This document shows, piece after piece, positions 5,928-21,511 of a DNA stretch of 32,000 nucleotides. Origin of the DNA: Desulfocapsa sulfexigens DSM 10523 (GTDB lineage: Bacteria > Desulfobacterota > Desulfobulbia > Desulfobulbales > Desulfocapsaceae); the NCBI RefSeq assembly GCF_000341395.1, contig NC_020305.1, forward strand, positions 1 to 32,000. Reading direction: 5' to 3'. A program made the position numbers and the translations under genes. How positions within the stretch are numbered: the stretch's first letter is position 1; each line of letters starts with the position of its first letter. The notes under the pieces are model-generated. The model ran no database searches. It had not been told where the DNA came from and was given only the letters and a program-made list of their open reading frames with translations.

Positions 5928-6833
5928 ATGGCTAATTGGCAGCTTCTAGTCCAAGCCCCTAGTACAGGTTTTCTACTTTCAGTTGTTGGAGTCGCTATAA
6001 GCCTTATTGGAACAACCGTAGGTATCTATACATTACTAAAGGTAAAAAAAGTAGTAAAGGCCCAGATTGAGGAGAGAAAGCTAACGCAAGAGTTGCTTGA
6101 TGTAGATCAAATAGAGAAAGATCTAAGACGAGTTGTTTCTAAACTAATGCAGGTTAATGACCACGACTCGGTTTCGCTCGCTAACGCACTCTCACAACGT
6201 TTGGGGGCAATCCAGGGTACAAGGAGAGTAATTGATCATGGTGCATCAGCTTGCGGTTGTGCATCGGGCGATGCTGTTTCCATTAAAACTGGTTTTTTCT
6301 GTTCGACACATGTTGATGATTTCATAGAACAAAGCACCTCTCGTATTGACCTCATGACTGGTAGTACAAGGCTAATAGCAGGGTATTTTACTATGGACAA
6401 GATCAAACAGGCATGTGAACGTGGTGTCAAGGTCCGGATAGTTGGGCTATCCCCCGAGGCACCTGATGATATTTTATTAGATGCAGCAAAAACTGTCTCA
6501 AAGCCAGCCCCTGAAACAGCCGAAGACTATCGTAACCTTATAAAGGCAAACCACAACGAAATTAGCAAGGTCGTAAACTCTTGGCCTGCACAAACAAAAG
6601 AACGATTTGAATACCGGGAGAATTTTGGTGTCCCCAGGGTATCTATTGCAAAATCAGATGATGTAATATGCTTAGGTTTCTTACAATTGTTTAGAGATGC
6701 CCAGCCTGAAAAAATCAACGATAGGCAATACATCAAGATTCCCCAAGATTCAGAGTTGGGAAGTGTAGTAATGAAACACTTTGAGCAGGGTTGGAGTGAA
6801 AGTAAGAAAATCATACCAGCAAAAAGCGGATAA
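5928..6833 (+). CDS. Membrane-anchored protein: N-terminal TM helix, coiled-coil, and a possible HKD-less PLD-like C-terminal domain
   Basis: The ATG at 5928 follows the upstream stop (5924-5926) by 1 nt, so I prefer it to the track start at 5874. The TM segment is FLLSVVGVAISLIGTTVGIYTLL. C-terminal ..RIDLMTGS..GVKVRIVGL..VSIAKSDDVICLGF resembles PLD-fold strands, but no His-x-Lys motif is present. The domain call is tentative. Confidence 0.5.
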   Translation: MANWQLLVQAPSTGFLLSVVGVAISLIGTTVGIYTLLKVKKVVKAQIEERKLTQELLDVDQIEKDLRRVVSKLMQVNDHDSVSLANALSQRLGAIQGTRRVIDHGASACGCASGDAVSIKTGFFCSTHVDDFIEQSTSRIDLMTGSTRLIAGYFTMDKIKQACERGVKVRIVGLSPEAPDDILLDAAKTVSKPAPETAEDYRNLIKANHNEISKVVNSWPAQTKERFEYRENFGVPRVSIAKSDDVICLGFLQLFRDAQPEKINDRQYIKIPQDSELGSVVMKHFEQGWSESKKIIPAKSG

Positions 6834-6878
6834 CATAAATATTTCCTGTGGTTCTTCGCACTTTCTGAGGACAACATC

Positions 6879-7808
6879 ATGGCCAGTTTTGCATTTTTCT
6901 TGGATCCGCTTGATACTTTATCCTTAGACAAGGATTCAACCTTACAGATAATAAAGCAAGGATATTTAAAAGGTCATGATGTCGCCGTATTTCATGATAA
7001 GGATCTAATAGTCCGAGATGGTGCTGTTATTATCAACTCAAGAATTATTGATTTTACAGCAGAAACACTCTCGGCACAGGTTGATTGCAAAAAAGATATT
7101 ACTGACTTCGATATACTTTTTGTTCGCAGGGACCCACCAGTAACCATTGAATTCTACACTAGTTTAAGCATACTCTCATCAATCGAAGCTAATATCCCCT
7201 GTATAAACTCTCCTTCTTCTATTTTAACCTTTCCCGAAAAAATTGGGCCTACCACCTTTAAACAACTACACCCTCCAACATTAATTTCCAGTAATCTTTC
7301 CGAAATCTATGACTTTAAAAAAGAACATGGAGCTGTCGTAGTAAAACCGTTATACAATTACTGTGGAAATGGGGTTTATATTAGTTTACAAAATGATCGA
7401 AATTTCAACTCTATCCTCTCACTGTTCAAAATGAACAGTAATACGCCTATATTATTGCAGAAATTCATAGAAGACGTTTCAGACGGCGACAGACGGATCA
7501 TAATGCTAGGTGGTGAACCCGTAGGTGCCATAAACCGTAAGGCAAGCCCCAATGATTTTAGATGCAATATGTTTGCTGGTGGAACCCCAACACTTCATAA
7601 CCTATCGTCGACCGAATTAGAAATGTGTGCCCAAATAAGCCCGATACTGACTGAAAGAGGTCTACATCTAGTTGGAATTGATATTATTGGCAACTATATA
7701 ACAGAAATTAATACAACCGCACCTACAGGTATATTTCAAATTGCCGACCTTGGTGGCCCGAATCTATGTGCTACAATAATTGACTACGCAGAAACGCTAA
7801 TAAAATGA
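6879..7808 (+). CDS. Glutathione-synthetase-family ATP-grasp ligase (GshB-like)
   Basis: Collinear with prokaryotic GshB as I recall it: FFLDPLDTLSLDKDST (N-terminal domain), FVRRDPP, VVVKPLYNYCGNGV, LLQKFIEDVSDGDRRIIMLGGEP, FRCNMFAGG, LVGIDIIGNYITEINTTAPTG. Confidence 0.75.
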   Translation: MASFAFFLDPLDTLSLDKDSTLQIIKQGYLKGHDVAVFHDKDLIVRDGAVIINSRIIDFTAETLSAQVDCKKDITDFDILFVRRDPPVTIEFYTSLSILSSIEANIPCINSPSSILTFPEKIGPTTFKQLHPPTLISSNLSEIYDFKKEHGAVVVKPLYNYCGNGVYISLQNDRNFNSILSLFKMNSNTPILLQKFIEDVSDGDRRIIMLGGEPVGAINRKASPNDFRCNMFAGGTPTLHNLSSTELEMCAQISPILTERGLHLVGIDIIGNYITEINTTAPTGIFQIADLGGPNLCATIIDYAETLIK

Positions 7809-8875
7809 GCTATCCAACAAATACATCAGACATTGAGGTTCCATTTCTCAAAATTTCAGGCTCTCCCAAAGAAATGGGCCTAACTCATGGAGAAACATAT
7901 CGTAATTTAATAGGAACTCTCTTCGAAATACGCCATGAATTACTCTTAAAAGGTGCCAAAGGATCTGATGAAAATAAAATTGAAGACATAGCGTATTCTT
8001 TCTGGAAATATATCAGCAATTTTGACAAGCCCTTAGCAATAGAATTGGAATCAACAGCCAAAGCAGCGAATATTCTTCCATGGAAGCTGGTTGTTGCAGG
8101 TGGTTTCACTGATCTTATGGATGCGCTTTCAACTACTATTCATCCAGATTATCATGAATGCACCGTTGCCATCGACCCTGCCAAAGGCTTCATCGCTGGA
8201 ACATGGGACAGCCACCCCGAAGCAGGAGAAGCACTAATCCTGTTAGAACGACACCCGAATAACGGCCCTGCAACTCTAGCCCTCACAACAGCTGGCTGGC
8301 CATGTCAACAAGGCCTCAATAGTTATGGTGTTGGATTTGCGATTACCAATCTCACCCCAAACAAATCTTCAAAACATGGCCTAGTTTATATTGCTGCTAA
8401 TGCTTTCTTAGGAACAGCACAAAGTACATCTCACATCTTAAACCAGCTAAAAACAGAAACTTATTGCTCAGGCCATTCTTACATTGTTCTTGATAGAACT
8501 GGATCTGGTGCAATTATGGAAACAACCAACACCACAACTAATATTTTACAAATTAACTCTCTCACCACCAAGGCTAATCATTACCTATCTGGGCCACAAA
8601 GCATTGATAACAACAGTAATTATCTCTACTATGACTACAGTATTTCACGTGAAAAGGAATTACATGAGAACATATCCCAAATGGCTAATGCACAAGATTT
8701 TCCTAGTTGCCTCTTTAATTCTCAGAAAGTCAATCGTACTGATAGTTCTCAGGTAGCTATCACTTGCGCACATTTTCTAATTTCGGTAATCGATAATACG
8801 ATTTGGTACGCAAAAGGCCCTGCTCTTCCTCCTCTAAAATATCAGATGCTATCAAAAACATTAAGTGACGAGTAA
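7805..8875 (+). CDS. Peptidase C45 / acyl-CoA:6-APA acyltransferase-like Ntn hydrolase
   Basis: N-terminal FLKISGSPKEMGLTHGE, the candidate nucleophile context HECTVAI, then GTWDS and the ...GHSYIVLDRTG... core are typical of the C45 family. The start overlaps the upstream stop (ATGA at 7805-7808). Confidence 0.65.
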   Translation: MSYPTNTSDIEVPFLKISGSPKEMGLTHGETYRNLIGTLFEIRHELLLKGAKGSDENKIEDIAYSFWKYISNFDKPLAIELESTAKAANILPWKLVVAGGFTDLMDALSTTIHPDYHECTVAIDPAKGFIAGTWDSHPEAGEALILLERHPNNGPATLALTTAGWPCQQGLNSYGVGFAITNLTPNKSSKHGLVYIAANAFLGTAQSTSHILNQLKTETYCSGHSYIVLDRTGSGAIMETTNTTTNILQINSLTTKANHYLSGPQSIDNNSNYLYYDYSISREKELHENISQMANAQDFPSCLFNSQKVNRTDSSQVAITCAHFLISVIDNTIWYAKGPALPPLKYQMLSKTLSDE

Positions 8876-8876
8876 A

Positions 8877-10559
8877 ATGAAAATAGCAATTATATTCCCA
8901 CCAATTTTTGACCCTTCAATGCCATACTTGGCACCTTTTCAGCTGAAATCTTACATAAAAAAGCGTAGACCTTCATGTGAAATAGATGTCTGCGACCTAA
9001 ACATTCTTTTCTTTAATAGCATTGTAAATAACCCATACAAAAATTTTAACTACAGTTTAAACAATACCTCGTCATATGAATCAATTATTACATGTGAAAG
9101 CAGTATCACAAGCGCGTTATCTAATTGGTCTCAAACCCATGGCGTTGAAATAACAAGACAAAGTGCTGACTATTTTTTTGATACCAGCAATTCTGAAGGC
9201 TATGAATCATTTTTAGAAAATACGACACCATTTGAAAACTACCTAAGCAACCTTATAATCAATCATATTGACATTCCAAAATATGATCTTTTCTTCTTCT
9301 CTATTACTTCTTATGAACAGCTCCTCCCCTCTTTAATCCTGTCTAAAATTGTAAAGTCGATGAACAAAACGACGAATATTTGCCTTGGGGGAAATATTAT
9401 ATCAAGAATTTTCAAAGGGCTCCTTAATAGTCCCCTGCTAACTTCTATTGATTTCCTTGTCATTAAAGAAGGAGAACTACCTAGCGTAAATCTTGTCGAT
9501 TATCTATCAAATCGTAAGCCTGGTAACCTAACCAATAGTCTCATTGAAGTTTCAACCAAAAAAGTTATCGACAGAACTCAGAAATCTAAAATTTTTGAAA
9601 TAGACCAAATTCCTACTATTGAATTTAACGAAGAAGAGTTAGGCTTATATTTCTCACCTGAACCTGTGATACCAATTTCATTGGCTAGGGGTTGCAGCTG
9701 GGGAAAGTGTTCATATTGCGGCATTCACACGGTATGGGGTTCCGGATATCGAACAAAGCTCCCCATTAAACTTGCTAATGAAATTGAGAATCACAAAAGA
9801 AGGTATTCAACTAATAATTTCCGCTTAATTGACGAATCTCCTGCAATCAAAGACCTACTTAAACTCTCCGACGAACTAATCAGTAAAAACCTTGAAGTCA
9901 ACATCGAAACTTATTTAAACCTAAGCTCAGCACTTTCAGATCGAGAAACAACAAATACACTTTACGAAGCAGGATTCAACCAGCTATTTCTTGGAATTGA
10001 AAGTTTGAACAAGGAATTATTGACAGAAATTGGTAAATCCATAAATCACCCCAACCGGTATGCTGATTTACTTGAAAGTACACACGAAGCAGGGATATCA
10101 AACTATTCCTTCCTTATGGTTGGCCTACCTAATGATTCAATCAATAATGAATTAGAAGTTGAGAAGTTTGTACTTTCAAATAGTGACATTGATACAATAG
10201 CTATTTCAAGCTTTATACCACTCAGCAACTCACCAATGTATTCAGACATCAGCTTTCAATCCAAACACGGTATCAAGTTTACACCCAGGGGGCCATTGAC
10301 AACTAGGTGTGATTACAAAACAAATAACAGAGACGTCAGTGAAGAAACCAATAATAGAGCCAAGGCAATGGCTAATCGGATCTTCATAGGACGAAGAGAT
10401 CTCTGCCTCTCTAGCAATATCCCCTATGAATCCCGGTTTTATTTAATCAATAAATTTGGAAACAATTGCTTTAAGGACTTAGCAAAAGCCACCAGTTTCA
10501 GTTTTAATGAACCTCTGATAAGTACAGAGCTAGACGGCAGGCTTACTGGCCTAAAATAA
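8877..10559 (+). CDS. B12-binding-domain radical SAM protein
   Basis: The N-terminal MKIAIIFPP... is a Rossmann-like B12-type domain. The cluster motif ARGCSWGKCSYCG is followed by LFLGIESLN and SFLMVGLP, which are characteristic of radical SAM cores. The ATG at 8877 lies 1 nt after the upstream stop, so I prefer it to the GTG at 8865. Confidence 0.7.
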   Translation: MKIAIIFPPIFDPSMPYLAPFQLKSYIKKRRPSCEIDVCDLNILFFNSIVNNPYKNFNYSLNNTSSYESIITCESSITSALSNWSQTHGVEITRQSADYFFDTSNSEGYESFLENTTPFENYLSNLIINHIDIPKYDLFFFSITSYEQLLPSLILSKIVKSMNKTTNICLGGNIISRIFKGLLNSPLLTSIDFLVIKEGELPSVNLVDYLSNRKPGNLTNSLIEVSTKKVIDRTQKSKIFEIDQIPTIEFNEEELGLYFSPEPVIPISLARGCSWGKCSYCGIHTVWGSGYRTKLPIKLANEIENHKRRYSTNNFRLIDESPAIKDLLKLSDELISKNLEVNIETYLNLSSALSDRETTNTLYEAGFNQLFLGIESLNKELLTEIGKSINHPNRYADLLESTHEAGISNYSFLMVGLPNDSINNELEVEKFVLSNSDIDTIAISSFIPLSNSPMYSDISFQSKHGIKFTPRGPLTTRCDYKTNNRDVSEETNNRAKAMANRIFIGRRDLCLSSNIPYESRFYLINKFGNNCFKDLAKATSFSFNEPLISTELDGRLTGLK

Positions 10560-10852
10560 CAAGATAAATAAATCTACGGAAAATAGAGTTGTTAACTGTT
10601 CAGCCGCAATCGCATAGCACTATATTTTGTAAACAGGAGCGTTAGGATTACAATTTAAGTTTAAATCATGTGTTTCTTCCAAATAACCATTCTATTTTAC
10701 CTTTCGTTATCTTAAGGTAAGGTCTCTGCGTAGGCACTGTCTTCAAATCTAAATCATCCTTCATACAAGCCTTCCAATGCAATTGATATTCATCTTGATA
10801 TTCCACTCCTATTATGTTCTATGATTTATATGCCAACAATATCAACAATCAG

Positions 10853-10880: not shown

Positions 10881-11507
10881 GTGGCAATAGTTAACCAAAA
10901 AGGCGGCACGGGCAAAACCACGATAGCCGTCAACCTCGCTTTTGGAACCGCTAACGCAAAATATCCTACCGCCCTGGTCGATGCCGATACCCAGGCAACC
11001 TGTCTCCATTTTTATGGTAACCAGGACATAGAAAACCTTACCGTCTGTTCTGCCGGTGATGATGTCCGGGAAACGGTGCAACAGTTGAGCAAGGATCACC
11101 GCTTTGTTTTTATAGACACAGCCCCTCACGATAACGATTCCATGTACCTTGCCATGGTCACTGCTGATCTGATAATCATCCCCACCAGACCACGGCCCTT
11201 TGATCTTCACTCCTCGGAAAAGGTAGTGGAGATGCTCCGGAGTATCGAGAACGAGTATGGCTACACGCCCTGCTATTTCCTCCTCAATCAAGTAAAACAC
11301 GGTACCATTCTCGGCAGGGAAACCCTGGATTATATCCAGCACAACTTTGAACTGCCTGTCCTGAAAACCCAGATCCATGATTATGAGATTTACGGACAGG
11401 CGCCATTATCCGGACAATCCGTATTCCTCTACGCACCCAAGCATAAAGCAGCTCAAGAGTTGAGAAACCTGCTGCGAGAGATGAACAAAATATACAAATC
11501 TCAATAA
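10875..11507 (+). CDS. parA: ParA/Soj-type partition ATPase
   Basis: Deviant Walker A VNQKGGTGKTT, Walker A' VDADTQA, and Walker B VFIDTAP. The size (210 aa) fits type Ib ParA. Confidence 0.85.
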   Translation: MIVAIVNQKGGTGKTTIAVNLAFGTANAKYPTALVDADTQATCLHFYGNQDIENLTVCSAGDDVRETVQQLSKDHRFVFIDTAPHDNDSMYLAMVTADLIIIPTRPRPFDLHSSEKVVEMLRSIENEYGYTPCYFLLNQVKHGTILGRETLDYIQHNFELPVLKTQIHDYEIYGQAPLSGQSVFLYAPKHKAAQELRNLLREMNKIYKSQ

Positions 11508-11583
11508 TGATATATGACACATAAATATTATATATGTTTTATGGCATTTAAAACCCAACTATGATATATAAAATATAAATCAT
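11503..11583 (+). promoter_or_regulatory. Two further (degenerate) copies of the bipartite motif, upstream of the RHH gene
   Basis: 11503-11529 reads AATAATGATAtatgacaCATAAATATT. 11560-11583 reads tATGATAtataaaaTATAAATCAT. Both keep the 7-nt spacer. Confidence 0.4.
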
Positions 11584-11611
11584 TCATATAATTATAGACA
11601 GGAGGTAATCC

Positions 11612-11881
11612 ATGGGCTTGCTCGACAGCACAGTGATGAAGCAGAAAAAACCAATCAGCAAGAGCAGTGAAGAAATATTAGCTGCCAGGCGTAAAACCAC
11701 TCCGACTGTAAAAGGCAAGGCCGGGAGACCTGCCAAGTACCCAAGAGATGAAAACACCAAGCGCATGAATGTGTTTATCCCTGGTGATATCCACAAACAG
11801 CTCAGACAGGCGAGTGTCGATTTGGATGCTTCGATGAATGAAATTATTGTTGATGCTTTACTGGCAAAGTTCAAGAAGTGA
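11612..11881 (+). CDS. Ribbon-helix-helix protein; ParG/omega-like partner of ParA
   Basis: A Lys/Arg-rich disordered N-terminus is followed by KRMNVFIPGDIHKQLRQASVDLDASMNEIIVDALLAKF, a beta-strand plus two helices. GGAGG precedes the ATG. Confidence 0.65.
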   Translation: MGLLDSTVMKQKKPISKSSEEILAARRKTTPTVKGKAGRPAKYPRDENTKRMNVFIPGDIHKQLRQASVDLDASMNEIIVDALLAKFKK

Positions 11882-12101: not shown

Positions 12102-14786
12102 TTACGACTCGTTCGTATCGTGTGCAGGTTTAAGATTAAACCTGCCATGATCGTGTTTGTAACACACTATTTCAGCACGTAATTGATCACCCGCATCAAA
12201 CTCTTCAAGTAATAACGCGCCAGCATCTTTAAGTTTATTAAATTCAGAAATGTGTATCAAGCCAGTGCCTTCAATACCAAATTCAACGAACAGGCCGTAT
12301 TTCTTTATCCCTGTTACCTGGCAGTCAACTACTCTACCAGGAGGATATTTTTTTTGTAATGTTTCCGTATCAGAAGTACTACTTGCCTTCTCTTTTAGTT
12401 TTTGGACATATTCTTTTGGTTCTGTAATATTGCAAAAATCATGAATTCTCTCTTCTGCTAATATAGCTTCAGGGTTTGCCAGATAACTATCTTTATATTC
12501 TTCTAAGTAAGATAGCAAAACTGAGGCATTATCAACTGATGAAGAGTATGACATGTGTCCTTTACCTTTACTCCCAATTAATCTATCTGCTATATCTTCC
12601 GCAATGCGTGCATCTTTAAACCATACATCTTCAGAACACGTTGAAAGGTAATCTAAATTTATGAGTAAATCCAGATGGACATGTCCAGATGGAGCAATTG
12701 AAATAAGGTCATCAATTGAAAATTGATTGATGTTTTGAGACTCAGTTGATATACATCCCGCCTTGATTAGTTCAGATATTTCATCAGATAACCTTCTTTC
12801 GTCATGCCCATATGCTACTAGTTCATTAATGATTGTCGCGGTTTTATGATACCCAAGCATCCCGCTTGGACCTTTAGTTCGATATTTTTTCTTTAACCAA
12901 GATAAAACTGACAACCTCGCAAAAGGATCTGGTATTATATCTTCTGGAAAAGATGCAAAAATATTTTTAACGAGGCTGTTAGCATCATTGTAGTACCTTC
13001 TGTTCCCGCGAAAAAGAACCCTGGTAACGATATGCTTTGGTAAAACATAATCACCCTTTGCATGCCTTATTTTAAATATCTGGTCTTCATGAATGTGTCC
13101 ACTTTTGCAAAAATCAAGAAAAATTTCCAACCCTTTTCTGATATTTGACCCAGCAATTCCTGAAACTATTCGCCTAAAAAGTGCATCATTTTGGAATAGT
13201 GAACGCAAAATACAAGCTAAATAATATGCTTGTTCAGATTGTGGATATTCAACTCGAAATCCATTTGGAAGAACATAGGACAATGAATTCTCTTTCTCCG
13301 TATCCATTTCAGCGAGAGCAAGTTTGACTCTCTTGTAAAGAACATCCATGAATAGTGGCGCATCAATTCGGAAGACTAAATCTTTGATGACTGTATCTAG
13401 TGGTGGTTCTGTTCTGTGGTGATCATATGTGGTGTCACGGATAGGTAGAAATACTAGACATCTACATGTTTTTTGGAGCCATTTCGCTACATCAAACATT
13501 AGCAATTGGTCGTCTCGATTCCGTTTGTCACTATTATCAAGTGACACAATTAATAACTTTTGTCTCTCAGCACAAAAATGGCGAATACATGCATTCATAG
13601 TTGCATCTGTATCACCTTGCACTCTGATCAACTCATCCGCCAAAAGGCTTTTATATTTGTCTGAATACTCGTCAAAATAGGCCCCAGCACCTTTTTTAAT
13701 TTTATTAAGCTCAACACTATATAATTTTTCTAAAAAAGGTAGACTGTCGAAATCAATATCAGCGTTATGGTTCCTGAATTCATTAATTATCTCATTCTCC
13801 AACCAAGAATAAATCACCCCTCTTGAAAGAGGTGCCAGATTCATATTAATGGATATCCACACAGTTGATTCTTTAATTTCTTCAGGTAAGGAGACTTCCC
13901 TTAGATAATCAATGAATGTTGATTTTCCGCTCCCAACACCTCCAATAAGAACTAATAATTGGTGGTGAAGTTTGTCGTTTGGTGTAAGAGTTCTCAACAG
14001 TTCACTTGGGTCTGTCGTTGAAATTTGATGAGCATCTGTGATACTTGGCGGATTTGCTGCGCGGATTATTTTGTCAATCGGATCTACATGTCTGAGGCGC
14101 CTTGTTGATTTTACATAAGCTTTCTTAACAATGTTTTTTCTTTCCTCCTCTGATTCAGGGTTGAACAAATGCCGATACTCAAGTGCCAAAGTATTACCAA
14201 ACGAATTTAGCTTCACTTCCTCATTTCTTACTGATCGTCCTCCTATAATGTTTGTAGGTCTCTTAAATTGAACATTGCCTCTCAATTTTTTTTGTTCTAC
14301 ATCAGAGAATTTTTCTAAATTTACCTTACAACCAAATGTAATCAATTTTGCGAGATTTGGATGAGATGCGTCTATTTCAGTATTAGAAATTTCTAGTAAT
14401 ATTGAACTGTCATCCCATGAGCCACAAATTGTACGTAATGAATTCGTTGCGATTAATTTCTGACAAGGATTAAAATGAGAAGGAAAAAGTGAATTTATTT
14501 CACCTGCATATAGCCTTGCTTCACGAATAGCCTCTTCAAGGTTGTTATCCTCTGGATGTTTTGCTTCAATTACAAGAACAGGAAGGCCGTGTAAGATAAC
14601 TATATAGTCCGGATAGTATAGTTTTTTTGCCCTTCCCTTGTCTATTTCAAGCTGCCTAATATCTGGCTTGGTTCTAAAGTCGCATGAAGAGTATCCTAAC
14701 CCAACAGGTTGACTATTAGTAAGTAGTGGAAGAATGAACTTCTGCTCGACATCGCTTTCATTCTTTATATCTTTCTCAGAAATCAT
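12102..14786 (-). CDS. 894-aa fusion: HsdR-N-type PD-(D/E)xK nuclease, P-loop NTPase, helical region, and C-terminal S1 (OB-fold) domain
   Basis: aa 10-95, ESDVEQKFILPLL...YPDYIVI...VLVIEAKHP...AIREARLYA, matches the type I restriction R-subunit N-terminal nuclease motif (D60, E74, K76). Walker A is LIGGVGSGKST (aa 280-290) and Walker B is LLIVSLDNSD (aa 411-420). aa 816-886, GRVVDCQVTGIKKYGLFVEFGIEGTGLIHISEF...GDQLRAEIV..., is a canonical S1 domain. Confidence 0.7.
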   Translation of the reverse strand: MISEKDIKNESDVEQKFILPLLTNSQPVGLGYSSCDFRTKPDIRQLEIDKGRAKKLYYPDYIVILHGLPVLVIEAKHPEDNNLEEAIREARLYAGEINSLFPSHFNPCQKLIATNSLRTICGSWDDSSILLEISNTEIDASHPNLAKLITFGCKVNLEKFSDVEQKKLRGNVQFKRPTNIIGGRSVRNEEVKLNSFGNTLALEYRHLFNPESEEERKNIVKKAYVKSTRRLRHVDPIDKIIRAANPPSITDAHQISTTDPSELLRTLTPNDKLHHQLLVLIGGVGSGKSTFIDYLREVSLPEEIKESTVWISINMNLAPLSRGVIYSWLENEIINEFRNHNADIDFDSLPFLEKLYSVELNKIKKGAGAYFDEYSDKYKSLLADELIRVQGDTDATMNACIRHFCAERQKLLIVSLDNSDKRNRDDQLLMFDVAKWLQKTCRCLVFLPIRDTTYDHHRTEPPLDTVIKDLVFRIDAPLFMDVLYKRVKLALAEMDTEKENSLSYVLPNGFRVEYPQSEQAYYLACILRSLFQNDALFRRIVSGIAGSNIRKGLEIFLDFCKSGHIHEDQIFKIRHAKGDYVLPKHIVTRVLFRGNRRYYNDANSLVKNIFASFPEDIIPDPFARLSVLSWLKKKYRTKGPSGMLGYHKTATIINELVAYGHDERRLSDEISELIKAGCISTESQNINQFSIDDLISIAPSGHVHLDLLINLDYLSTCSEDVWFKDARIAEDIADRLIGSKGKGHMSYSSSVDNASVLLSYLEEYKDSYLANPEAILAEERIHDFCNITEPKEYVQKLKEKASSTSDTETLQKKYPPGRVVDCQVTGIKKYGLFVEFGIEGTGLIHISEFNKLKDAGALLLEEFDAGDQLRAEIVCYKHDHGRFNLKPAHDTNES

Positions 14787-15009
14787 TCAATTTCCCTCGA
14801 TTAAGCCTATTAATTGTTCATTTGGCAGTTTCAAAGTATACTAGCAATACAGTCATATCCATATATTCACATACATATGCCACAACATTCGAAGTCAACA
14901 TATTTCCAACTCTCTATTTTAATCCAAAACAAAGATATTGAGGATATAGACTGAGTTGGTAATACGGAAATAATGAATTAATTATTCCACTAGTTACATA
15001 TTCAAACAT

Positions 15010-16412: not shown

Positions 16413-16708
16413 CATCCGAGAATGGTGATAGTTAAGAAAGAATCAGGGAGTAATTACCCTCCAATCATTACGCTAATGGGCACATCCGAGAATGGTGATA
16501 GTTCATCCGAATTCGGTGATAGTTGAGAAAGAGTAAAGCAAACAATGCCCCTGTAACCCTTACTGGCAAGTACTTTACTGCCTATGTGTTCTCAATATCC
16601 ATTCCCCCGAGAATAGTGATAGTTCATCCGAGAATGGTGATAATAACTCCGAGTTTAGTGATAGTTCATCCGAGTTTGGTGATAGTTAGTCCGAGAATGG
16701 TGATAGTT
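16413..16708. repeat. Iteron array (21-bp unit CATCCGAGAATGGTGATAGTT); probable oriV
   Basis: Copies at 16413-16433 and 16483-16503, then 16504-16524 in tandem. Five contiguous head-to-tail copies span 16604-16708, and a partial copy lies near 16389-16403. An AT-rich stretch follows at 16709-16800. The array is upstream of repA. Confidence 0.85.
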
Positions 16709-17097: not shown

Positions 17098-17616
17098 TCA
17101 ATTAGTCCATCTCAGAACCTTCTTTCCCTGAGTAATAACATTCTCCAGCTTGAAGGAATCAGATCCAGCGCACCAGTCATGAGTTTTCTTCCCCCCGTTA
17201 TATCCATCAACAGCCAGGCCATTCTTCACCAGGATGGCCCCCAGGTCTTTCCCGTCAAATTCTACGTCGGCAATGATCCTGAAATACTTCCCCCGGCCAA
17301 CTTTGTGGAGATTGATCTGTTTTGCTGACCTAAGCAGAGAGCGAACCATTTTTTTAGCCTGTCGGGCTTTTTCCAGTTCAGCCGGACATCCTGCTTTCAT
17401 TTCTGGAGTATCGATCCCCCTGATCCGGATCATCATGTCGCTACCTATGATAGGATGAACTCCTGGAATGTTTACGGTGATAGTATCCCCATCATAGTTT
17501 TTCACATAATGTACGCCTTTAAAACTACCGTAAGTGTGATCCTTTTTTGCTCCGTTAACACTTATTGGTAGAAAAACGAGGGCTAATAGAAAACAAACAA
17601 ACTTTACTGTGCGCAT
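17098..17616 (-). CDS. Secreted thermonuclease (staphylococcal-nuclease fold)
   Basis: Signal peptide MRTVKFVCFLLALVFLPISVNG, then the SNase motifs YDGDTITV and IRIRGIDTPE. Confidence 0.8.
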   Translation of the reverse strand: MRTVKFVCFLLALVFLPISVNGAKKDHTYGSFKGVHYVKNYDGDTITVNIPGVHPIIGSDMMIRIRGIDTPEMKAGCPAELEKARQAKKMVRSLLRSAKQINLHKVGRGKYFRIIADVEFDGKDLGAILVKNGLAVDGYNGGKKTHDWCAGSDSFKLENVITQGKKVLRWTN

Positions 17617-17673
17617 ATATTATGTTACCATTTTAGTATAGATGTTTTAAAAAACCATCAAGAAGGGGCTCAA

Positions 17674-18111
17674 ATGAGACATTACAGCACGATTCTAAGG
17701 GAAGAAAGGGAAAAAGCCGATTTGTCACGAAGGGCTGTAGCGAAGGTTGCAGGTATCTCCGAGGGGCACTTGCGTTTTCTGGAAAGAGGGGATCGGGATA
17801 CAAAACCGGCAACTCTTCGTAAGTTGGCCCTGGCTATCGGCATAGATGAGCGGGAGTTGATGGAGTCCTGGTTAAAGGAAAATATGCCGGCAATGGATTA
17901 TTCCGATCTGGCTGCACGTCTTCCAAAAGGAATTGATGTGGCCCAGCTCGAAGAAATGTATCAGATTCCGGAGGCAAAACAGATTCTTCAGGAAGCGGAG
18001 CTGATCACGGCGAGTCAATTCAAGAATATCAGTGCCTCTGAGTTGTTCAGGATCCGAGGGGCTCTCCGCAACTGCCTTGGTTTTATCCGTGAACTTGAGA
18101 ACAACACGTAA
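17674..18111 (+). CDS. XRE-family helix-turn-helix regulator
   Basis: LSRRAVAKVAGISEGHLRFLERGDRDTKPATLRKLALAIGID is an HTH_XRE motif. The gene is divergent from the nuclease gene. Confidence 0.75.
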   Translation: MRHYSTILREEREKADLSRRAVAKVAGISEGHLRFLERGDRDTKPATLRKLALAIGIDERELMESWLKENMPAMDYSDLAARLPKGIDVAQLEEMYQIPEAKQILQEAELITASQFKNISASELFRIRGALRNCLGFIRELENNT

Positions 18112-18532: not shown

Positions 18533-21511
18533 ATGAATGATTTTGAAGAGATCAAGCGGGCTGCTGATCTAAAAGCAATCATTTTATCCGAAACGGGTCT
18601 CCAGATGGGAAAAAACCATCTGGAGTCATGTCCGTTTTGTGACGGCCATGATTGCTTCAGTATAAACACGAAGAAGGAGCAGTACAAGTGTTTTCAGTGT
18701 GACACTGGCGGAGACATCTTTGATTTTATAGCAAAATATCATGGTGTTACTGAGCGTGAAGCCCTTCTCAAAGCTGCGGATCTGGTCGGCCACACCCTCT
18801 CTCAACACAAAAAGTCCGCAAGACTGAGCAAAAACGATAAACTTTTGCTCTCGGCTGCAGAATATTATCATCACCACATGCTGACCAACGGTGCCAAAAA
18901 GTACCTGATGGATCAGCGCGGCCATTCCATGGAAACCCTGGAACGTATGAAGGTGGGGTGGACTGATGGTAAGTTGCTTTTCAACCTGCAGGAACAGGGA
19001 TTCACAATCGATGAAATCCTGGAATCAGGGCTGGCCCGGGCTGATAAAAAGAACCCCGGTCGCCACTATGATTTTTTCGGAAAAGGGCTGGCAATCTTCC
19101 CTCACTTCGAGAATGGCCGAGCCCTTCACTTCACCATTAAAGATCCCGAGAAAAAGCGGCCTTCCTACCAGCTCCCCGCAACACAGCGTCACAAGAAGTG
19201 GCGATTCTACAACCAGGATGCCCTTTTCAGATATGATGAATTGATTCTGGTTGAAGGGGAAAACGACACCCTTTCTGTCCTCGATTCAGGTGTCCGCCAG
19301 GTCATAGGGATGACTGGCCAGATATCGGAAGAGCAGATAAAGAGCCTGGCTGCACACTGCAAGAGCAAAAAACATCTCTACCTCTGGATGGACAACGACT
19401 TTGACCACTCAAAGCCGTATACAAAAGGGTATGGCTATATTCGCAAAATCTCCGAAAGCCTGCCGGGGGTTAATATCCGTATCTTTGTTTATCCTGGAAA
19501 TTTCAATGATCCGGACGAATACCTGCAGCACCTCGCAAGAGACAAGCGCCGCAATGCAATCTGCCAGCTCCGCATAGAATCGGTTGATTATATCACCTGG
19601 GAAATTCTCCAGGCCGAAGCCAAAGCAACATTGGAAGATAAGGTTGAACACCTCAATCAGTTCAACCTCTTTCAGCAGATCAGCCAGCGCTCCCACATCG
19701 AGCAACAGGTTTATATCGAGAAACTTGAGGAGTTGGGCCTCAACCTGAAATCAATCCATCAGGAACTGGAAACCGGTGGCGGTCTTCGCCAGCGGATCAC
19801 AGAATATCTGGAAAACCTCAATAGCAAACGGGATGCAAATCCAAACAGTATTGCCGATCTGATCCACGATCATTTCAGCGATGGTGGTCGTTTTTTCAGG
19901 GATGATGACGACAAGGTTTATCTGATGTGGCATCACAATATCTATGAAGTGTCCACCAATCGTCCCTTCAATGCCCTTATCAAAAGAGAAACAGGGTTAT
20001 TACCCACGGAGCAGCCGGGCCGCTCTGTCTGGGAGTCCCTTGCTTCAGAAGGGTATAATTCGGGACGGAAAATTGATCTCGGTGGGTGGTTGCACACGGA
20101 TCGCGGTGCCGATACGGTTTATATCAACCTCAACAGCTCCAATAATATCATCATAAAGATCACGCCGACGGCTATCGAAGAGATCCAGAATGGATTGAAC
20201 CAGGATCATATTCTTTTGCAGAGTTCCAGCAAAATAAAACCATTCAACTACCTGCCGGAAACAACTATTGAGGAGGCTGTCTCCGAATTGCGGAAGCTGC
20301 TTTTCGATAATCTCTCCTGCGAAACTACCCAAAAGTATCTCCTGCTCTGCTGGTTTATTTCAACTTTTGTTTCTGATTTCAGTCCCCATGTGGCCCCATT
20401 GCTGAAAGCTGCAGGGGAAACCGCCTCCGGCAAGACCACCGCTGCCAGGCTTCTCGAGTATCTTCTCTATGGTGATGAGCACCTGGGTGAAATATCCGTT
20501 GCTGGTGCCTATGCGGACGCCAGCCAGAACCCCATGCTGGTGATTGATAACCTTGAAAATCAGGACATCAAACAGGAAATGCTCAAATTTCTACTTCTGG
20601 TGGCGACCAGGGGGAGCAAGGTCAAGAGGAAGGGCGGTACAGAATCTGGAGTTACCGAAGAGAGTCCGAAAGCCCTGGTCATGGTGACGGCCATCGAACC
20701 CTTTGTTAAATCCGAGCTCATAAACCGGACATTTGAAATCAGCTTTGCCAAACAATATCACAATGAAGGGTTTATTGATGATGAAGTGACCCGGCAGATC
20801 CTCAAAAAACGAGACATCATTCTTTCCGGTCTGCTCAAGCTCATTCAAAAAGAAATCCTGCCCAACCTGAAAAAGAGAACTGCCTATATTACAGCCCTGA
20901 ATGTCGATCATAAAGGCCACAGCAAGGATAGAATGAACGCTTATCTGGCCTTGATGATGCTTATTTTAGATAGAACCCTGAATTATTGGGATGTGGGGCT
21001 CCACTTAAAGGCACCTGATATCTGGCACAACTGGATAACCACCCAGGACCAGTTGGCCCGGGAACATGAAGTCAGCTCAAACGATATTCTAAAGCTGCTT
21101 GACGGCCTGATCCGGGAGTACCGGCTCCGGATGAACGAACAGGAACTCCGGCCCCAATGTGTTTACGGGTATGAGGAAGAAGTTTATCAGTATACCCACC
21201 CGGAATACGGCATATCAATCACCAGGACACTCCCTAAATTTATCGATGATAACAGGGAACACACAGAGGCCTTTATTGAGTTTGAGGCCACCAGCAAAGA
21301 TTTGACCTATGCCTTTACCCGTTTTTGCAAGAATAACGGATTGGCCAACCCCTATTCCTCAGCTGCTATTTTCGGTTCACGACTCAAGAATGACCGGAAA
21401 TTATTAGTCAAGGGAGGCTGGGAGCTGGTTACAAAGGAGGACAATGGAACCTATTTCAAGGTTGTCAGAGGTCAAAGATATCTCAGATTTCGGCATCGTC
21501 TTATCAGATAA
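18533..21511 (+). CDS. Replicative primase (CHC2 zinc finger plus Toprim) fused to a C-terminal P-loop (helicase-like) domain
   Basis: The zinc finger is CPFCDGHDCFSINTKKEQYKCFQCDTGGDIFDF. Toprim motifs are LILVEGENDTLSV and YLWMDNDFD. The C-terminal Walker A is GETASGKTT and Walker B is MLVIDNLEN. Confidence 0.8.
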   Translation: MNDFEEIKRAADLKAIILSETGLQMGKNHLESCPFCDGHDCFSINTKKEQYKCFQCDTGGDIFDFIAKYHGVTEREALLKAADLVGHTLSQHKKSARLSKNDKLLLSAAEYYHHHMLTNGAKKYLMDQRGHSMETLERMKVGWTDGKLLFNLQEQGFTIDEILESGLARADKKNPGRHYDFFGKGLAIFPHFENGRALHFTIKDPEKKRPSYQLPATQRHKKWRFYNQDALFRYDELILVEGENDTLSVLDSGVRQVIGMTGQISEEQIKSLAAHCKSKKHLYLWMDNDFDHSKPYTKGYGYIRKISESLPGVNIRIFVYPGNFNDPDEYLQHLARDKRRNAICQLRIESVDYITWEILQAEAKATLEDKVEHLNQFNLFQQISQRSHIEQQVYIEKLEELGLNLKSIHQELETGGGLRQRITEYLENLNSKRDANPNSIADLIHDHFSDGGRFFRDDDDKVYLMWHHNIYEVSTNRPFNALIKRETGLLPTEQPGRSVWESLASEGYNSGRKIDLGGWLHTDRGADTVYINLNSSNNIIIKITPTAIEEIQNGLNQDHILLQSSSKIKPFNYLPETTIEEAVSELRKLLFDNLSCETTQKYLLLCWFISTFVSDFSPHVAPLLKAAGETASGKTTAARLLEYLLYGDEHLGEISVAGAYADASQNPMLVIDNLENQDIKQEMLKFLLLVATRGSKVKRKGGTESGVTEESPKALVMVTAIEPFVKSELINRTFEISFAKQYHNEGFIDDEVTRQILKKRDIILSGLLKLIQKEILPNLKKRTAYITALNVDHKGHSKDRMNAYLALMMLILDRTLNYWDVGLHLKAPDIWHNWITTQDQLAREHEVSSNDILKLLDGLIREYRLRMNEQELRPQCVYGYEEEVYQYTHPEYGISITRTLPKFIDDNREHTEAFIEFEATSKDLTYAFTRFCKNNGLANPYSSAAIFGSRLKNDRKLLVKGGWELVTKEDNGTYFKVVRGQRYLRFRHRLIR

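What the first reader, a model, noticed from the sequence alone, without database searches (positions are those of the whole stretch)
12102..14786. Stand-alone 894-aa nuclease / P-loop NTPase / S1-domain fusion: candidate single-gene defence or plasmid-competition system
One polypeptide combines four parts. The first is an HsdR-N-type PD-(D/E)xK nuclease module (VEQKFILPLL...PDY...VIEAK). The second is a P-loop NTPase (GGVGSGKST; LLIVSLD). The third is a mostly helical region of about 350 aa. The fourth is a canonical S1 OB-fold RNA/ssDNA-binding domain at the extreme C-terminus. The order (effector, NTPase switch, sensor-like region) parallels STAND/Avs-type antiviral proteins, but I know of no described defence family that ends in an S1 domain. 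The gene is an isolated AT-rich insertion between the partition locus and repA, with its own AT-rich flanks. That is a typical position for plasmid-borne accessory defence genes.
Basis: partly seen in the sequence, partly recalled or inferred. Interest (0 to 1): 0.7.

Follow-up and report, generated by a model that had tools for sequence, protein, structure and literature searches.

The report
Stand-alone nuclease–ATPase with RNA-binding tail
This plasmid gene encodes an uncharacterised single protein that joins a restriction-type nuclease, an ORC/STAND-like ATPase switch and an RNA-binding S1 domain, and its relatives sit in known phage-defence hotspots, so it is most likely a new RNA-coupled anti-phage/anti-plasmid immunity protein.

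Summary
**Observation.** It is correct. The ORF at 12102-14786 (-) encodes 894 aa with four modules:
- an HsdR-N-type PD-(D/E)xK nuclease
- an AAA+ NTPase
- a lid/winged-helix/helical region
- a genuine C-terminal S1 domain

**Family.** The window is from the 36.7-kb *Desulfocapsa sulfexigens* plasmid. The protein belongs to a large family spread patchily across many phyla. It has no PADLOC, NCBIfam or literature assignment. Databases mislabel it 'ribosomal protein S1' or 'type I restriction endonuclease'.

**Conservation.** Nuclease and ATPase catalytic residues are essentially invariant in 300 members.

**Fold.** The ATPase core resembles ORC/Cdc6 and CED-4/Apaf-1/NLR proteins, and RdrA of the RADAR defence system.

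**Context.**
- No partner gene is conserved across about 86 loci.
- Nearest neighbours are enriched for restriction-modification and other defence genes.
- 25 temperate-phage contigs carry the gene. In 11 of them it occupies the P2 gpA-gpQ slot, the published hotspot that holds *old* and *tin*.

**New finding.** In some members one or two RRM domains replace the S1 tail, and others lack a tail. This points to RNA binding as an exchangeable input or targeting module.

**Verdict.** This is a well-supported but untested single-gene defence candidate, and a new variant of the nuclease-NTPase kind. The trigger, the substrate and the role of RNA are inferred.

The parts
12102..14786 (-). Complete ORF, 894 aa (stop codon 12102-12104)
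   Evidence: It is 100% identical to P0001 from the Desulfocapsa sulfexigens DSM 10523 plasmid.
14787..15009 (-). 223-bp upstream intergenic region between the repA stop and the gene start (30% GC). RBS GAGGG lies 7 nt before the ATG. No consensus promoter or terminator was called here on this strand, so read-through from repA is possible.
14097..14786 (-). N-terminal nuclease module, residues 1-230. The PD-(D/E)xK core (Pfam HSDR_N) covers residues 43-120 (14427-14660). Predicted catalytic residues are E10/E14, D60, E74 and K76. Residues 126-230 form a more variable helical extension.
13974..14096 (-). Linker, residues 231-271. Low model confidence.
   Evidence: pLDDT is below 50 at 230-234 and 244-271.
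13347..13973 (-). AAA+ P-loop NTPase, residues 272-480. Walker A GGVGSGKST is at 282-290 (13917-13943). Walker B LLIVSLD-N-x-D is at 411-420 (13536-13556 for 411-417). The candidate sensor-1 is R450. Helical insertions span 349-406.
12387..13346 (-). Lid, winged-helix and helical region, residues 481-800. The invariant motif AG(R/S)NIRKGLEIFLDFCKSGH (546-564) contains R550, the candidate sensor-2 arginine. Residues 641-800 are the most variable part of the body.
12117..12374 (-). C-terminal S1 OB-fold domain, residues 805-890. It keeps the YG-F-VEFG...G-LIH-S signature. In other family members it is replaced by one or two RRM domains, or is absent.

Best explanation
**What it is.** A self-contained, single-polypeptide immunity or exclusion enzyme of the nuclease-NTPase kind. 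It travels as cargo on plasmids, P2-like prophages, integrative elements and defence islands.

**Shown by computation.**
- The N-terminal HsdR-N-type PD-(D/E)xK nuclease has an intact, invariant active site.
- The central ORC/Cdc6-STAND-type AAA+ module has invariant Walker A, Walker B and two invariant arginines. A lid and winged-helix region follow it.
- The C-terminus is a bona fide single-stranded-RNA-binding domain: S1 here, one or two RRMs in some relatives, and nothing in others.

**Inferred mechanism.**
1. The protein is kept autoinhibited in uninfected cells.
2. Nucleotide binding and hydrolysis by the AAA+ module drives a conformational or oligomeric switch, as in ORC/Cdc6, NLR/Avs proteins and RdrA.
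3. The variable 641-800 region plus the S1/RRM tail couple that switch to RNA made by an invading phage or plasmid. That RNA could be free transcripts or nascent RNA on transcribed foreign DNA.
4. The nuclease domains are thereby licensed to cut nucleic acid. By homology to every characterised HSDR_N domain, the substrate is most simply DNA.
5. The invader is stopped, or the infected cell is killed.

Tail-less relatives would use the same nuclease-ATPase engine with a different or narrower input.
For: **Domains.**
- Domain calls and invariant catalytic residues.
- Good AlphaFold models: pLDDT 82.5 for the full length and 80.4 for the core.
- The core fold matches ORC4, archaeal ORC2/Cdc6, CED-4, Apaf-1 and NRC NLRs.
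- It also matches the RADAR ATPase RdrA, including its RNA-loading state (8hrb, 8hr8; query TM-scores 0.31-0.33, the highest group).
- RdrA was itself compared with Cdc6 and an NLR (PMC9994260).

**C-terminal exchange.**
- 2x RRM_1 in P0144 (E 2.7e-27) and P0179 (8e-24), and 1x in P0164 (3.4e-7).
- RRM forms also occur in loci L020, L042 and L019.
- RRM forms nest among S1-bearing and tail-less forms.
- S1 and residues 641-800 are the least conserved modules (0.38-0.41 mean pairwise identity, against 0.55-0.57).

**Defence context.**
- No conserved partner gene.
- Near ORFs hit 348 PADLOC models and far ORFs hit 23. Near neighbours include N6_Mtase, ResIII, Mrr, Eco57I, integrases and a resolvase.
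- L117 and L118 sit beside type I R-M genes, a reverse transcriptase and integrases. L006 has Fic, NERD and Mrr. L002 has TIR and DUF87.
- 25 IMG/VR contigs are confirmed temperate phages.
- 11 of them carry the gene in the P2 gpA-gpQ hotspot (PMC9122126).
- 6 of 8 random unknown genes from P4 defence hotspots were protective (PMC13586616).
- The phyletic distribution is very patchy and broad.
Against: - No experiment exists for any member.
- The trigger, the substrate (DNA or RNA) and the oligomeric state are all inferred.
- About a quarter of full-length members lack any RNA-binding tail. RNA binding therefore cannot be essential to the core mechanism.
- S1 and RRM folds can also bind ssDNA.
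- Foldseek E-values are modest (1e-4 to 4e-6) and TM-scores are low (0.2-0.33). The ATPase clade assignment (ORC/Cdc6 or STAND) is therefore unresolved.
- The near-versus-far PADLOC contrast counts models, not proteins. Redundant R-M models inflate it, and many neighbours are ordinary metabolic genes.
- The family is absent from GenBank phage records and from complete E. coli genomes by megablast, and is rare in PLSDB plasmids (4 records).
Confidence: 0.45

Rival explanations
1. RNA is the substrate, not the signal. The protein would be an ATP-dependent ribonuclease. The S1/RRM tail captures mRNA, tRNA or rRNA and feeds it to the PD-(D/E)xK domain, shutting down translation (abortive infection).
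For: - Two different canonical RNA-binding folds occupy the C-terminus.
- The closest defence-related structural match, RdrA, has an RNA-loading state.
- PD-(D/E)xK chemistry can be adapted to RNA (stated in 10.1101/2025.07.10.664194).
- Precedents for nuclease-NTPase or HEPN immune RNases are SAMD9/Avs9 and DARNA.
Against: - The nuclease matches Pfam HSDR_N, whose characterised members are DNA endonucleases of type I restriction enzymes (established knowledge).
- Tail-less clades keep an identical active site. Substrate capture by S1 therefore cannot be obligatory.
- No RNase-specific features were identified.
Confidence: 0.2
2. The protein senses ssDNA or acts on DNA only. The S1/RRM tail would bind single-stranded DNA, such as replication, recombination or conjugation intermediates. 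The enzyme would then act as an ATP-dependent restriction-like nuclease on invading DNA, with RNA playing no part.
For: - OB-folds and RRMs can bind ssDNA (established knowledge).
- Published single-protein precedent: DARNA/PD-T7-3 is activated by ssDNA bound to its C-terminal domains.
- A compact Druantia system senses ssDNA (abstract listed).
- The plasmid and ICE contexts expose ssDNA during transfer.
Against: - By sequence the S1 domain is closest to the RNA-binding S1 repeats of bS1, GSP13/CvfD and PNPase.
- The replacement domain matches RRM_1 strongly (E 1e-24 to 1e-27). RRM_1 is a family dominated by RNA binders.
Confidence: 0.15
3. The function is in plasmid or element maintenance, not immunity. 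This could be an ORC/Cdc6-like replication or partition accessory factor, a multimer or R-loop resolvase at the origin, or an addiction module. That would explain its place next to rep/par genes.
For: - In the window it lies between the par genes and repA, possibly co-transcribed with repA.
- Homologues lie near rep/par on the Shewanella and Phaeobacter plasmids.
- The ATPase fold is closest to replication initiators.
- Every copy examined is on, or at the edge of, a mobile element.
Against: - Most copies are chromosomal or prophage-borne with no adjacent replication genes.
- In P2-like phages it occupies the variable accessory slot, not a core position, and relatives carry unrelated cargo there.
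- Only 4 of 72,556 PLSDB plasmids carry it.
- On plasmids of 36-64 kb any gene is close to rep/par.
- No cognate antitoxin or conserved partner exists.
Confidence: 0.08
4. The database names are right. It would be a ribosomal protein S1 paralogue or housekeeping RNA-processing factor, or an HsdR subunit of a type I restriction enzyme.
For: Source names are 'ribosomal protein S1', 'S1 RNA-binding domain-containing protein' and 'type I restriction endonuclease'. The S1 and HSDR_N domain hits are real.
Against: - There is one S1 repeat at the end of an 894-aa enzyme, not the four to six repeats of bS1.
- No SF2 helicase motor is present: no ResIII or Helicase_C hits.
- No conserved hsdM or hsdS neighbour exists.
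- Where a type I system is adjacent it already has its own complete HsdR (L117).
- The patchy, mobile-element-borne distribution is unlike a housekeeping gene.
Confidence: 0.02

Closest known systems
Antiviral STAND NTPases (Avs) and other bacterial NLR-like proteins
   Same: - Single large polypeptide laid out as N-terminal nuclease effector, central P-loop switch with lid and winged helix, and C-terminal input region.
- Carried in defence islands and prophages.
- The core model hits CED-4, Apaf-1 and NRC NLRs.
- AAA_16 and nSTAND5 give sub-threshold hits in some members.
   Different: - No PADLOC Avs or NLR model is hit.
- ORC/Cdc6 proteins match as well or better.
- There is no TPR, WD40 or LRR repeat sensor of 400 aa or more.
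- The C-terminus is a small nucleic-acid-binding domain, not a protein-recognising solenoid.
- An invariant arginine (R550) sits where ORC/Cdc6 and RdrA have sensor-2 (inference).
ORC/Cdc6-clade AAA+ ATPases (archaeal Orc1/Cdc6, eukaryotic ORC subunits)
   Same: Best structural matches are 7jps_D (E 4e-6), 1w5s/1w5t (TMq 0.31-0.32) and 1fnn. All share the ATPase, helical lid and winged-helix arrangement. The AG-x-x-I-R-K-G-L-E-I-F-L motif resembles the Cdc6 sensor-2 helix (own knowledge, inference).
   Different: - There is no detectable sequence homology.
- The protein is fused to a nuclease and an S1 domain.
- It is mobile-element cargo rather than a core replication gene.
RdrA, the AAA+ ATPase of the RADAR defence system
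   Same: - It is the defence protein with the highest query TM-scores to the core model (8hr8_G 0.33, 8hrb_C 0.31).
- RdrA is a Cdc6/NLR-like AAA+ protein with Walker A/B, sensor-1 and a sensor-2 arginine, and it forms rings (PMC9994260).
- One matched entry is titled as an RNA-loading state.
   Different: - RADAR needs the RdrB adenosine deaminase, and no partner gene is conserved here.
- No PADLOC RdrA hit.
- The effector here is an in-cis nuclease.
DUF499 ATPases of BREX-related systems (and BrxC/BrxD)
   Same: Published architecture: an optional N-terminal HEPN endoRNase, a STAND/ORC-Cdc6 AAA+ ATPase, wHTH domains, and a hypervariable C-terminal RRM-fold domain proposed to bind foreign nucleic acid (PMC12839542). 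This is the closest published layout of nuclease, ORC-like ATPase and RNA-binding-type tail.
   Different: - DUF499 works in multi-gene systems with helicase, methyltransferase or PglZ partners. This family is stand-alone.
- The nuclease type differs (HEPN against PD-(D/E)xK).
- Only trace sequence signal exists: PF10923 at E 0.005 in 1 of 33 members, and BrxD at E 0.007 in 2 of 33.
- The tails here are canonical S1 or RRM_1 domains.
SAMD9/SAMD9L and bacterial Avs9
   Same: Multidomain antiviral proteins with an N-terminal nuclease (AlbA_2), a P-loop NTPase and a C-terminal OB-fold (PMC12680541). So 'nuclease ... NTPase ... OB-fold end' is not unprecedented.
   Different: - The domain families differ: AlbA_2/Schlafen RNase, SIR2 and TPR.
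- Those proteins are much larger.
- Their OB-fold is not an S1 domain by the description given.
- No homology was detected here.
DARNA (PD-T7-3)
   Same: A single-protein abortive-infection system. Its N-terminal nuclease is activated when multiple C-terminal domains of an oligomer bind a single-stranded nucleic acid (10.64898/2026.02.22.705581). This is the best functional precedent for the proposed logic.
   Different: - Its nuclease is a HEPN RNase.
- It has no NTPase.
- Its trigger is ssDNA presented by phage SSB.
- It belongs to a different family: PADLOC includes the PD-T7 systems and none was hit.
HsdR subunit of type I restriction enzymes
   Same: The N-terminal nuclease belongs to the same Pfam family, HSDR_N, with the D...ExK motif and a following xxxY helix.
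   Different: No SF2 translocase motor and no HsdM/HsdS partners. The ATPase is AAA+ rather than a helicase.

Membership tests
Avs / bacterial STAND (NLR-like) immune receptors | Central NTPase recognisable as STAND (NACHT, NB-ARC or AAA_16-type) by sequence models | tested here: inconclusive
   - No PADLOC Avs or NLR hit.
- AAA_16 is sub-threshold in 10 of 33 members, and AAA_22 in 14 of 33.
- nSTAND_NTPase5 scores E 1.3e-3 in one member.
- Foldseek hits both the STAND and ORC clades.
- The supplementary clade tables of the 589-clade STAND census could not be read.
Avs / bacterial STAND (NLR-like) immune receptors | Large C-terminal repeat-type sensor (TPR, WD40 or similar, typically 400 aa or more) that binds a phage protein | tested here: not met
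   The post-NTPase region is about 320 aa of lid, winged-helix and helical bundle, followed by an 80-aa S1 domain. No repeat family appears in Pfam.
Avs / bacterial STAND (NLR-like) immune receptors | N-terminal effector domain (e.g. a nuclease) on the same polypeptide | tested here: met
   An HSDR_N PD-(D/E)xK domain with an invariant active site.
Avs / bacterial STAND (NLR-like) immune receptors | Ligand-induced oligomerisation that activates the effector | not testable with these tools
   This needs biochemistry or cryo-EM.
ORC/Cdc6-clade AAA+ ATPases | AAA+ core with Walker A/B, sensor-1, a sensor-2 arginine in a helical lid, followed by a winged-helix domain | tested here: met
   - Fold level: top Foldseek matches are ORC4, ORC2 and Cdc6.
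- K288, D417/D420, R450 and R550 are invariant in 300 proteins.
- Assigning R450 and R550 as sensor-1 and sensor-2 is an inference from position in the model, not from a superposition.
Type I restriction enzyme HsdR (the name given by NCBI to homologues) | SF2 helicase/translocase motor (ResIII/DEAD plus Helicase_C) following the nuclease | tested here: not met
   No such Pfam hits in the query or in 33 members.
Type I restriction enzyme HsdR (the name given by NCBI to homologues) | Operon partners HsdM and HsdS | tested here: not met
   No conserved neighbour across about 86 loci. Where type I genes are adjacent, they include their own HsdR (L117).
Ribosomal protein bS1 (the name given to this very protein) | Four to six tandem S1 repeats and no enzymatic domains | tested here: not met
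   A single S1 domain at residues ~805-890 of an 894-aa nuclease-ATPase.
RADAR (RdrA/RdrB) | Adjacent RdrB adenosine deaminase, and a match to RdrA models | tested here: not met
   No conserved partner and no PADLOC RdrA hit. There is only a fold-level resemblance of the ATPase.
BREX-related DUF499/BrxC systems | Multi-gene locus (PglZ, methyltransferase, helicase) around an ORC-like ATPase with a C-terminal RRM-fold | tested here: not met
   The gene is stand-alone, with only trace sequence similarity. The resemblance is architectural (PMC12839542).
Nuclease-NTPase anti-phage systems (generic class; 10.1101/2025.07.10.664194) | A PD-(D/E)xK, PLD or Toprim nuclease combined with a P-loop NTPase, in one to three genes | tested here: met
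   A PD-(D/E)xK nuclease and an AAA+ NTPase in one gene.
Nuclease-NTPase anti-phage systems (generic class; 10.1101/2025.07.10.664194) | Demonstrated protection against phage | not testable with these tools
   No experimental data were found for any member.
P2-like prophage hotspot cargo (Rousset et al. 2022) | Located between replication gene gpA and portal gene gpQ of a P2-like prophage | tested here: met
   This holds for homologues, not for the window copy. In L101-L110 and L114, gpA is 79-89% or 32-33% identical to the Klebsiella peduovirus genes, and the portal is 61-95% identical. The hotspot is defined in PMC9122126.

The most novel reading that the evidence does not exclude
This family would be a bacterial ORC/NLR-like immune receptor whose pattern-recognition module is an ordinary RNA-binding domain, S1 or RRM, exchangeable between lineages. 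It would sense invader RNA directly, as free transcripts or nascent RNA on foreign DNA, and answer with an in-cis restriction-type nuclease. It would be a protein-only, guide-free counterpart of transcription-dependent type III CRISPR targeting, and the first NLR-like bacterial sensor to read nucleic acid rather than a phage protein.
Probability: 0.25. Interest if true: 0.85.

Novelty: new variant of a known kind. Interest (0 to 1): 0.62.

Why it matters
- **Sensing.** How defence systems detect infection is the main open question for most of them. Nearly all known single-protein NTPase sensors (the Avs families) read phage proteins.
- **What this family adds.** It has an invariant nuclease-ATPase engine and a tail that evolution has swapped between two unrelated canonical RNA-binding folds. 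That would make RNA-coupled activation or targeting directly testable with simple domain deletions and swaps.
- **Reach.** The family is widespread across many phyla and sits in the P2 hotspot. It is absent from PADLOC 2.0 and from the literature I could search (newer DefenseFinder and PADLOC releases were not available). Adding it would fill annotation gaps.
- **Annotation.** Two systematic misannotations would be corrected: 'ribosomal protein S1' and 'type I restriction endonuclease'.

Tried and rejected
- **Conserved partner gene.** All-vs-all clustering of flanking ORFs in about 86 loci found none.
- **Cis-encoded ncRNA partner** (retron or type III TA style). There is no Rfam hit near the gene; the only hit is a sub-threshold isrI match inside the ORF (E 0.4). 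The window shares no conserved non-coding flank with homologues of 74% and 63% identity, or with about 80 other loci.
- **Insertion boundaries.** No flanking direct or inverted repeats bound the gene.
- **Membership in a known defence system.** PADLOC gives only P-loop-level noise: mad3, DndF, HEC-01A and AriA, with E at or above 1e-4. Hailibu turned out to be DUF4297-HerA. DARNA is the HEPN protein PD-T7-3.
- **Different N-terminal effectors in distant relatives** (L008, L089). These are the same nuclease type, only divergent (hhalign E 5.5e-5 and 1.3e-4). There is therefore no evidence for effector swapping.
- **Sequence-level links to solved structures.** None for residues 1-800 or for the N-terminal domain alone.
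- **Nucleotide-level relatives.** None for the plasmid region in PLSDB. No relatives in GenBank phages or in complete E. coli genomes.
- **2026 STAND census.** Its supplementary tables were not available, so I could not check whether the family is one of its 589 clades.
- **The two 202-aa ORFs of equal length in the window** are unrelated.

Full report
**1.

The ORF lies at 12102-14786 on the minus strand and encodes 894 aa. A GAGGG ribosome-binding site lies 7 nt upstream, and the repA stop is 223 bp away on the same strand.

- *Nuclease.* Pfam finds HSDR_N at residues 43-120 (E 4e-10, above the curated cut-off).
- *S1.* Pfam S1 matches 814-850 (24.8 bits against a cut-off of 22). A profile of 33 homologues matches ribosomal protein bS1 in the PDB at E 1.7e-28 over positions 810-885. 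All 33 members hit Pfam S1. Foldseek matches the GSP13 and MJ1198 S1 domains.
- *P-loop.* Single-sequence hits for the P-loop are only sub-threshold.
- *Neighbours.* They are as described: ParA, a small ORF, then the gene, then a Rep_3 initiator.
- *Composition.* The gene is 36.5% GC, against about 48% for repA and parA. Other accessory genes in the window are equally AT-rich. No repeats mark insertion boundaries.

**2. Source and family.**

The protein is identical to a protein annotated as 'ribosomal protein S1' on the 36,751-bp plasmid of *Desulfocapsa sulfexigens* DSM 10523.

- More than 750 clusters at 90% identity match it, mostly full-length (880-910 aa, 44-75% identity).
- An exhaustive profile search finds 670 clusters at 50% identity with E below 1e-30.
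- A scan of one genome per species returned loci from many groups: Alpha-, Beta-, Gamma- and Deltaproteobacteria, Bacteroidota, Clostridia, Planctomycetota, Verrucomicrobiota, Acidobacteriota, spirochaetes, CPR bacteria, Melainabacteria and Lentisphaerota. That is a patchy, horizontally transferred pattern.
- Sources name homologues 'type I restriction endonuclease' or 'S1 RNA-binding domain-containing protein'.
- No NCBIfam family model covers the protein.
- No PADLOC model matches beyond P-loop noise.

**3. Anatomy.**

AlphaFold2 with the family alignment gives a confident model (pLDDT 82.5, pTM 0.76). A separate model of residues 265-800 reaches pLDDT 80.4. The modules are:

| Residues | Module | Key features |
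|---|---|---|
| 1-125 | PD-(D/E)xK core | |
| 126-230 | More variable helical extension | |
| 231-271 | Disordered linker | |
| 272-480 | AAA+ NTPase | Helical insertions |
| 481-640 | Helical lid and winged-helix-like elements | Invariant motif AG-x-N-I-R-K-G-L-E-I-F-L-D-F-C-K-S-G-H |
| 641-800 | Variable helical bundle | |
| 805-890 | S1 barrel | |

Across 300 full-length family members the following are essentially invariant: nuclease residues E10, E14, D60, E74 and K76; Walker A K288; Walker B D417/D420; R450; and R550. Both enzymatic activities are therefore under strong purifying selection.

Mean pairwise identity is 0.55-0.57 for the nuclease core, NTPase and lid/WH. It is 0.38-0.41 for residues 126-230, residues 641-800 and S1.

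**4. What kind of ATPase.**

Sequence gives no link to solved structures outside the S1 domain. By fold, the core matches:

- ORC4 (7jps_D, E 4e-6)
- archaeal ORC2 and Cdc6 (1w5s, 1w5t, 1fnn)
- CED-4, Apaf-1 and plant NRC NLRs
- TnsC
- RdrA of the RADAR defence system, including an entry titled 'RNA-loading state'

The RdrA matches (query TM-scores 0.31-0.33) are among the highest, level with archaeal ORC2 (0.31-0.32) and yeast ORC1 (0.31).

The E-values and TM-scores are modest. I therefore place the module in the ORC/Cdc6-STAND neighbourhood of AAA+ proteins and do not choose between the clades. RdrA was itself described by comparison with Cdc6 and an NLR, and has a sensor-2 arginine (PMC9994260). 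R550 here sits at the start of a lid helix, where such an arginine is expected. That assignment is my inference.

**5. The C-terminus is an exchangeable RNA-binding module.**

This was not in the finding.

- P0144 (990 aa) and P0179 share the nuclease-NTPase body but end in two RRM_1 domains (E 2.7e-27 and 8e-24). P0164 ends in one (E 3.4e-7).
- RRM forms also appear in genomes of Bryobacterales, Syntrophaceae and Acidobacteriota (L020, L042, L019).
- Four RRM forms cluster together at 57-74% identity. Their next relatives (45-50%) include both S1-bearing and tail-less proteins. P0164 does not group with them.
- Roughly a quarter of full-length members have no tail (about 800-830 aa): a divergent clade at about 30% identity plus some close relatives.
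- Distant plasmid relatives that seemed to have a different N-terminus (L008, L089) actually carry a divergent nuclease of the same type.

The engine is therefore constant. The tail has been swapped between two unrelated ssRNA-binding folds, or lost, more than once. This is the strongest hint that RNA, rather than just any single-stranded nucleic acid, matters to the tailed forms. It also shows that RNA binding is an add-on and not part of the core mechanism.

**6. Genomic context.**

*Partner genes.* No neighbour is conserved. After clustering the flanking ORFs of about 86 loci, the commonest non-self cluster occurs in 7 loci, at variable distances.

*Individual neighbourhoods.*

| Locus | Context |
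|---|---|
| L001 | End of a P2-like prophage |
| L002 | TIR and DUF87 genes nearby |
| L003 | Megaplasmid, near NikA and UvrD |
| L004 | Edge of an ICE-like element with two Fic genes |
| L006 | Fic, NERD, Mrr, then the gene |
| L117 (74% identity) | Resolvase, Prim-Pol primase, the gene, HsdM, HsdS, HsdR, integrase |
| L118 (63% identity) | HTH plus reverse transcriptase, and type I HsdS/HsdM |
| Shewanella plasmid | Next to a type II R-M system |
| Phaeobacter plasmid | Next to a RelE/ParE pair |

*Rough quantitative test.* The 150 nearest ORFs (within 4 kb, from 71 loci) matched 348 PADLOC models at E of 1e-6 or better. These were type I, II and III methyltransferases, type IV restriction enzymes and MADS components. 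The 150 distal ORFs (6.5 kb or more away) from the same loci matched 23.

Pfam on the near set lists N6_Mtase, ResIII, Mrr_cat, Eco57I, N6_N4_Mtase, integrases and a resolvase, alongside ordinary metabolic genes. The model counts are inflated by redundant R-M models. I treat this as clear but semi-quantitative enrichment.

**7. Prophage hotspot.**

- Twenty-five IMG/VR contigs encode full-length homologues.
- Their flanking ORFs hit portal, terminase, scaffold, adaptor, integrase, repressor and P2 gpA-type PHROGs.
- In 11 contigs the gene order is int..., gpA, [gene], portal(-), large terminase(-), scaffold, capsid.
- This was verified against an annotated Klebsiella peduovirus: gpA is up to 89% identical and the portal up to 95%. 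In that phage the same slot holds DinI, several hypothetical genes and a TIR-domain protein.
- Rousset et al. define exactly this gpA-gpQ interval as the P2 anti-phage hotspot that carries *old* and *tin* in P2 (PMC9122126).
- A 2026 survey reports that 6 of 8 randomly chosen unknown genes from P4 defence hotspots protected against phages (PMC13586616).
- The hotspot copies are themselves 50-92% identical to each other. The association is therefore not a single recent event.

**8. Things looked for and not found.**

- No Rfam family near the gene.
- No conserved non-coding flank that could encode an RNA partner.
- No match in GenBank phage records or in complete E. coli genomes.
- Only 4 PLSDB plasmids carry it.
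- No paper describes the architecture.
- I could not check the supplementary clade tables of the 2026 STAND census.

**9. How it most likely works.**

*Shown computationally:*
- an active-site-intact restriction-type nuclease
- an intact AAA+ switch of the ORC/STAND kind
- a bona fide RNA-binding tail that is evolutionarily exchangeable
- stand-alone organisation
- residence in defence islands and a validated prophage defence hotspot

*Inferred:*
- The protein idles in an autoinhibited state.
- The AAA+ module provides a nucleotide-dependent conformational or oligomeric switch.
- The variable 641-800 region plus the S1/RRM tail couple that switch to invader-derived RNA.
- The nuclease then cuts nucleic acid.

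DNA is the default substrate, because all characterised HSDR_N domains are DNases (established knowledge). DARNA/PD-T7-3 shows that an N-terminal nuclease can be activated by C-terminal domains that bind a single-stranded nucleic acid.

I give about 0.75 to 'immunity or exclusion function' and about 0.45 to the full RNA-coupled statement.

*Rivals:*

| Rival | Confidence |
|---|---|
| RNA is the substrate | 0.2 |
| ssDNA sensing | 0.15 |
| Plasmid-maintenance role suggested by the rep/par neighbourhood and ORC-like fold | 0.08 |
| The database names are right | 0.02 |

**10. Comparison with known systems, and novelty.**

It works like an Avs/NLR-type or RdrA-type nucleotide switch with an in-cis effector. 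However, it fails the membership tests for several families:

- Avs: no repeat sensor and no model hits.
- RADAR: no RdrB partner.
- BREX-related DUF499 systems: not multi-gene.
- HsdR: no helicase motor and no HsdM/HsdS partners.
- bS1: a single S1 repeat.

The closest published layouts are two:
- DUF499 ATPases: HEPN, then an ORC/STAND AAA+ ATPase, then wHTH domains, then a hypervariable RRM-fold (PMC12839542).
- SAMD9/Avs9: nuclease, then NTPase, then an OB-fold (PMC12680541).

I found no described family with this domain combination or with canonical S1/RRM tails.

I rate it a new variant of a known kind: single-protein nuclease-NTPase defence. Interest is 0.62. It is a strong and tractable candidate with an unusual, testable sensing hypothesis, but there is no phenotype yet.

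Noticed in passing
window 16483-16524 and 16607-16708: 21-bp tandem repeats upstream of the Rep_3 repA gene: about 2 copies and about 4.9 copies, with a consensus near CCGAGAATGGTGATAGTTAAT. This is the expected iteron array of the plasmid origin. A spurious ORF with a repetitive peptide overlaps it.
   Followed up: partly
window 11502-11535 and 11556-11589: Two 34-nt AT-rich direct repeats (74% identical, 54 nt apart) lie between parA and the small 89-aa ORF at 11612-11881. They may be a partition site or operator. The 89-aa ORF has no Pfam hit, but its position suits a ParG/ParB-like partner.
   Followed up: no
window 4222-10559: A low-GC (35-41%) co-directional gene block ends in an AAT-family acyltransferase-like protein (7805-8875) and a 564-aa radical SAM protein (8865-10559). 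It may be a small biosynthetic or peptide-modification cargo cluster on the plasmid.
   Followed up: no
window 17098-18111 and 18533-21511: A staphylococcal-nuclease-like protein with an apparent signal peptide (17098-17616, -) lies divergently next to an HTH_3 regulator (17674-18111). A 992-aa CHC2 zinc-finger/Toprim primase follows. Further on are a tyrosine recombinase (22084-23115) and an orphan N6_N4 DNA methyltransferase (27135-28388).
   Followed up: partly
L022 and L040 (flanks of the homologue): In L022 a 43-nt inverted repeat (93% identity) brackets the homologue. In L040 an 84-nt direct repeat (82% identity) occurs on both sides. These may be traces of cassette-like insertion of the gene in those genomes.
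   Followed up: no
L118 10117-11399: An HTH_3 gene followed by a 329-aa RVT_1 reverse transcriptase lies 1.4 kb downstream of the 63%-identical homologue, next to type I hsdS and hsdM. It may be a retron, DRT or Abi-type system in the same island.
   Followed up: no
L116 (Klebsiella phage ST15-OXA48phi14.1, record 9305-10738): The gpA-gpQ hotspot of this annotated peduovirus carries a 477-aa TIR-domain protein preceded by small hypothetical genes and DinI. This is another likely defence cargo in the slot that the family occupies in related prophages.
   Followed up: no
L001 8953-9933: In the Spartinivicinus ruber P2-like prophage, an S49/SDH-family protease gene lies immediately upstream of the homologue, between tail gene D and the gene. 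Rhs/YD-repeat toxin genes lie downstream, before the integrase. Several accessory genes are therefore stacked at that prophage end.
   Followed up: no
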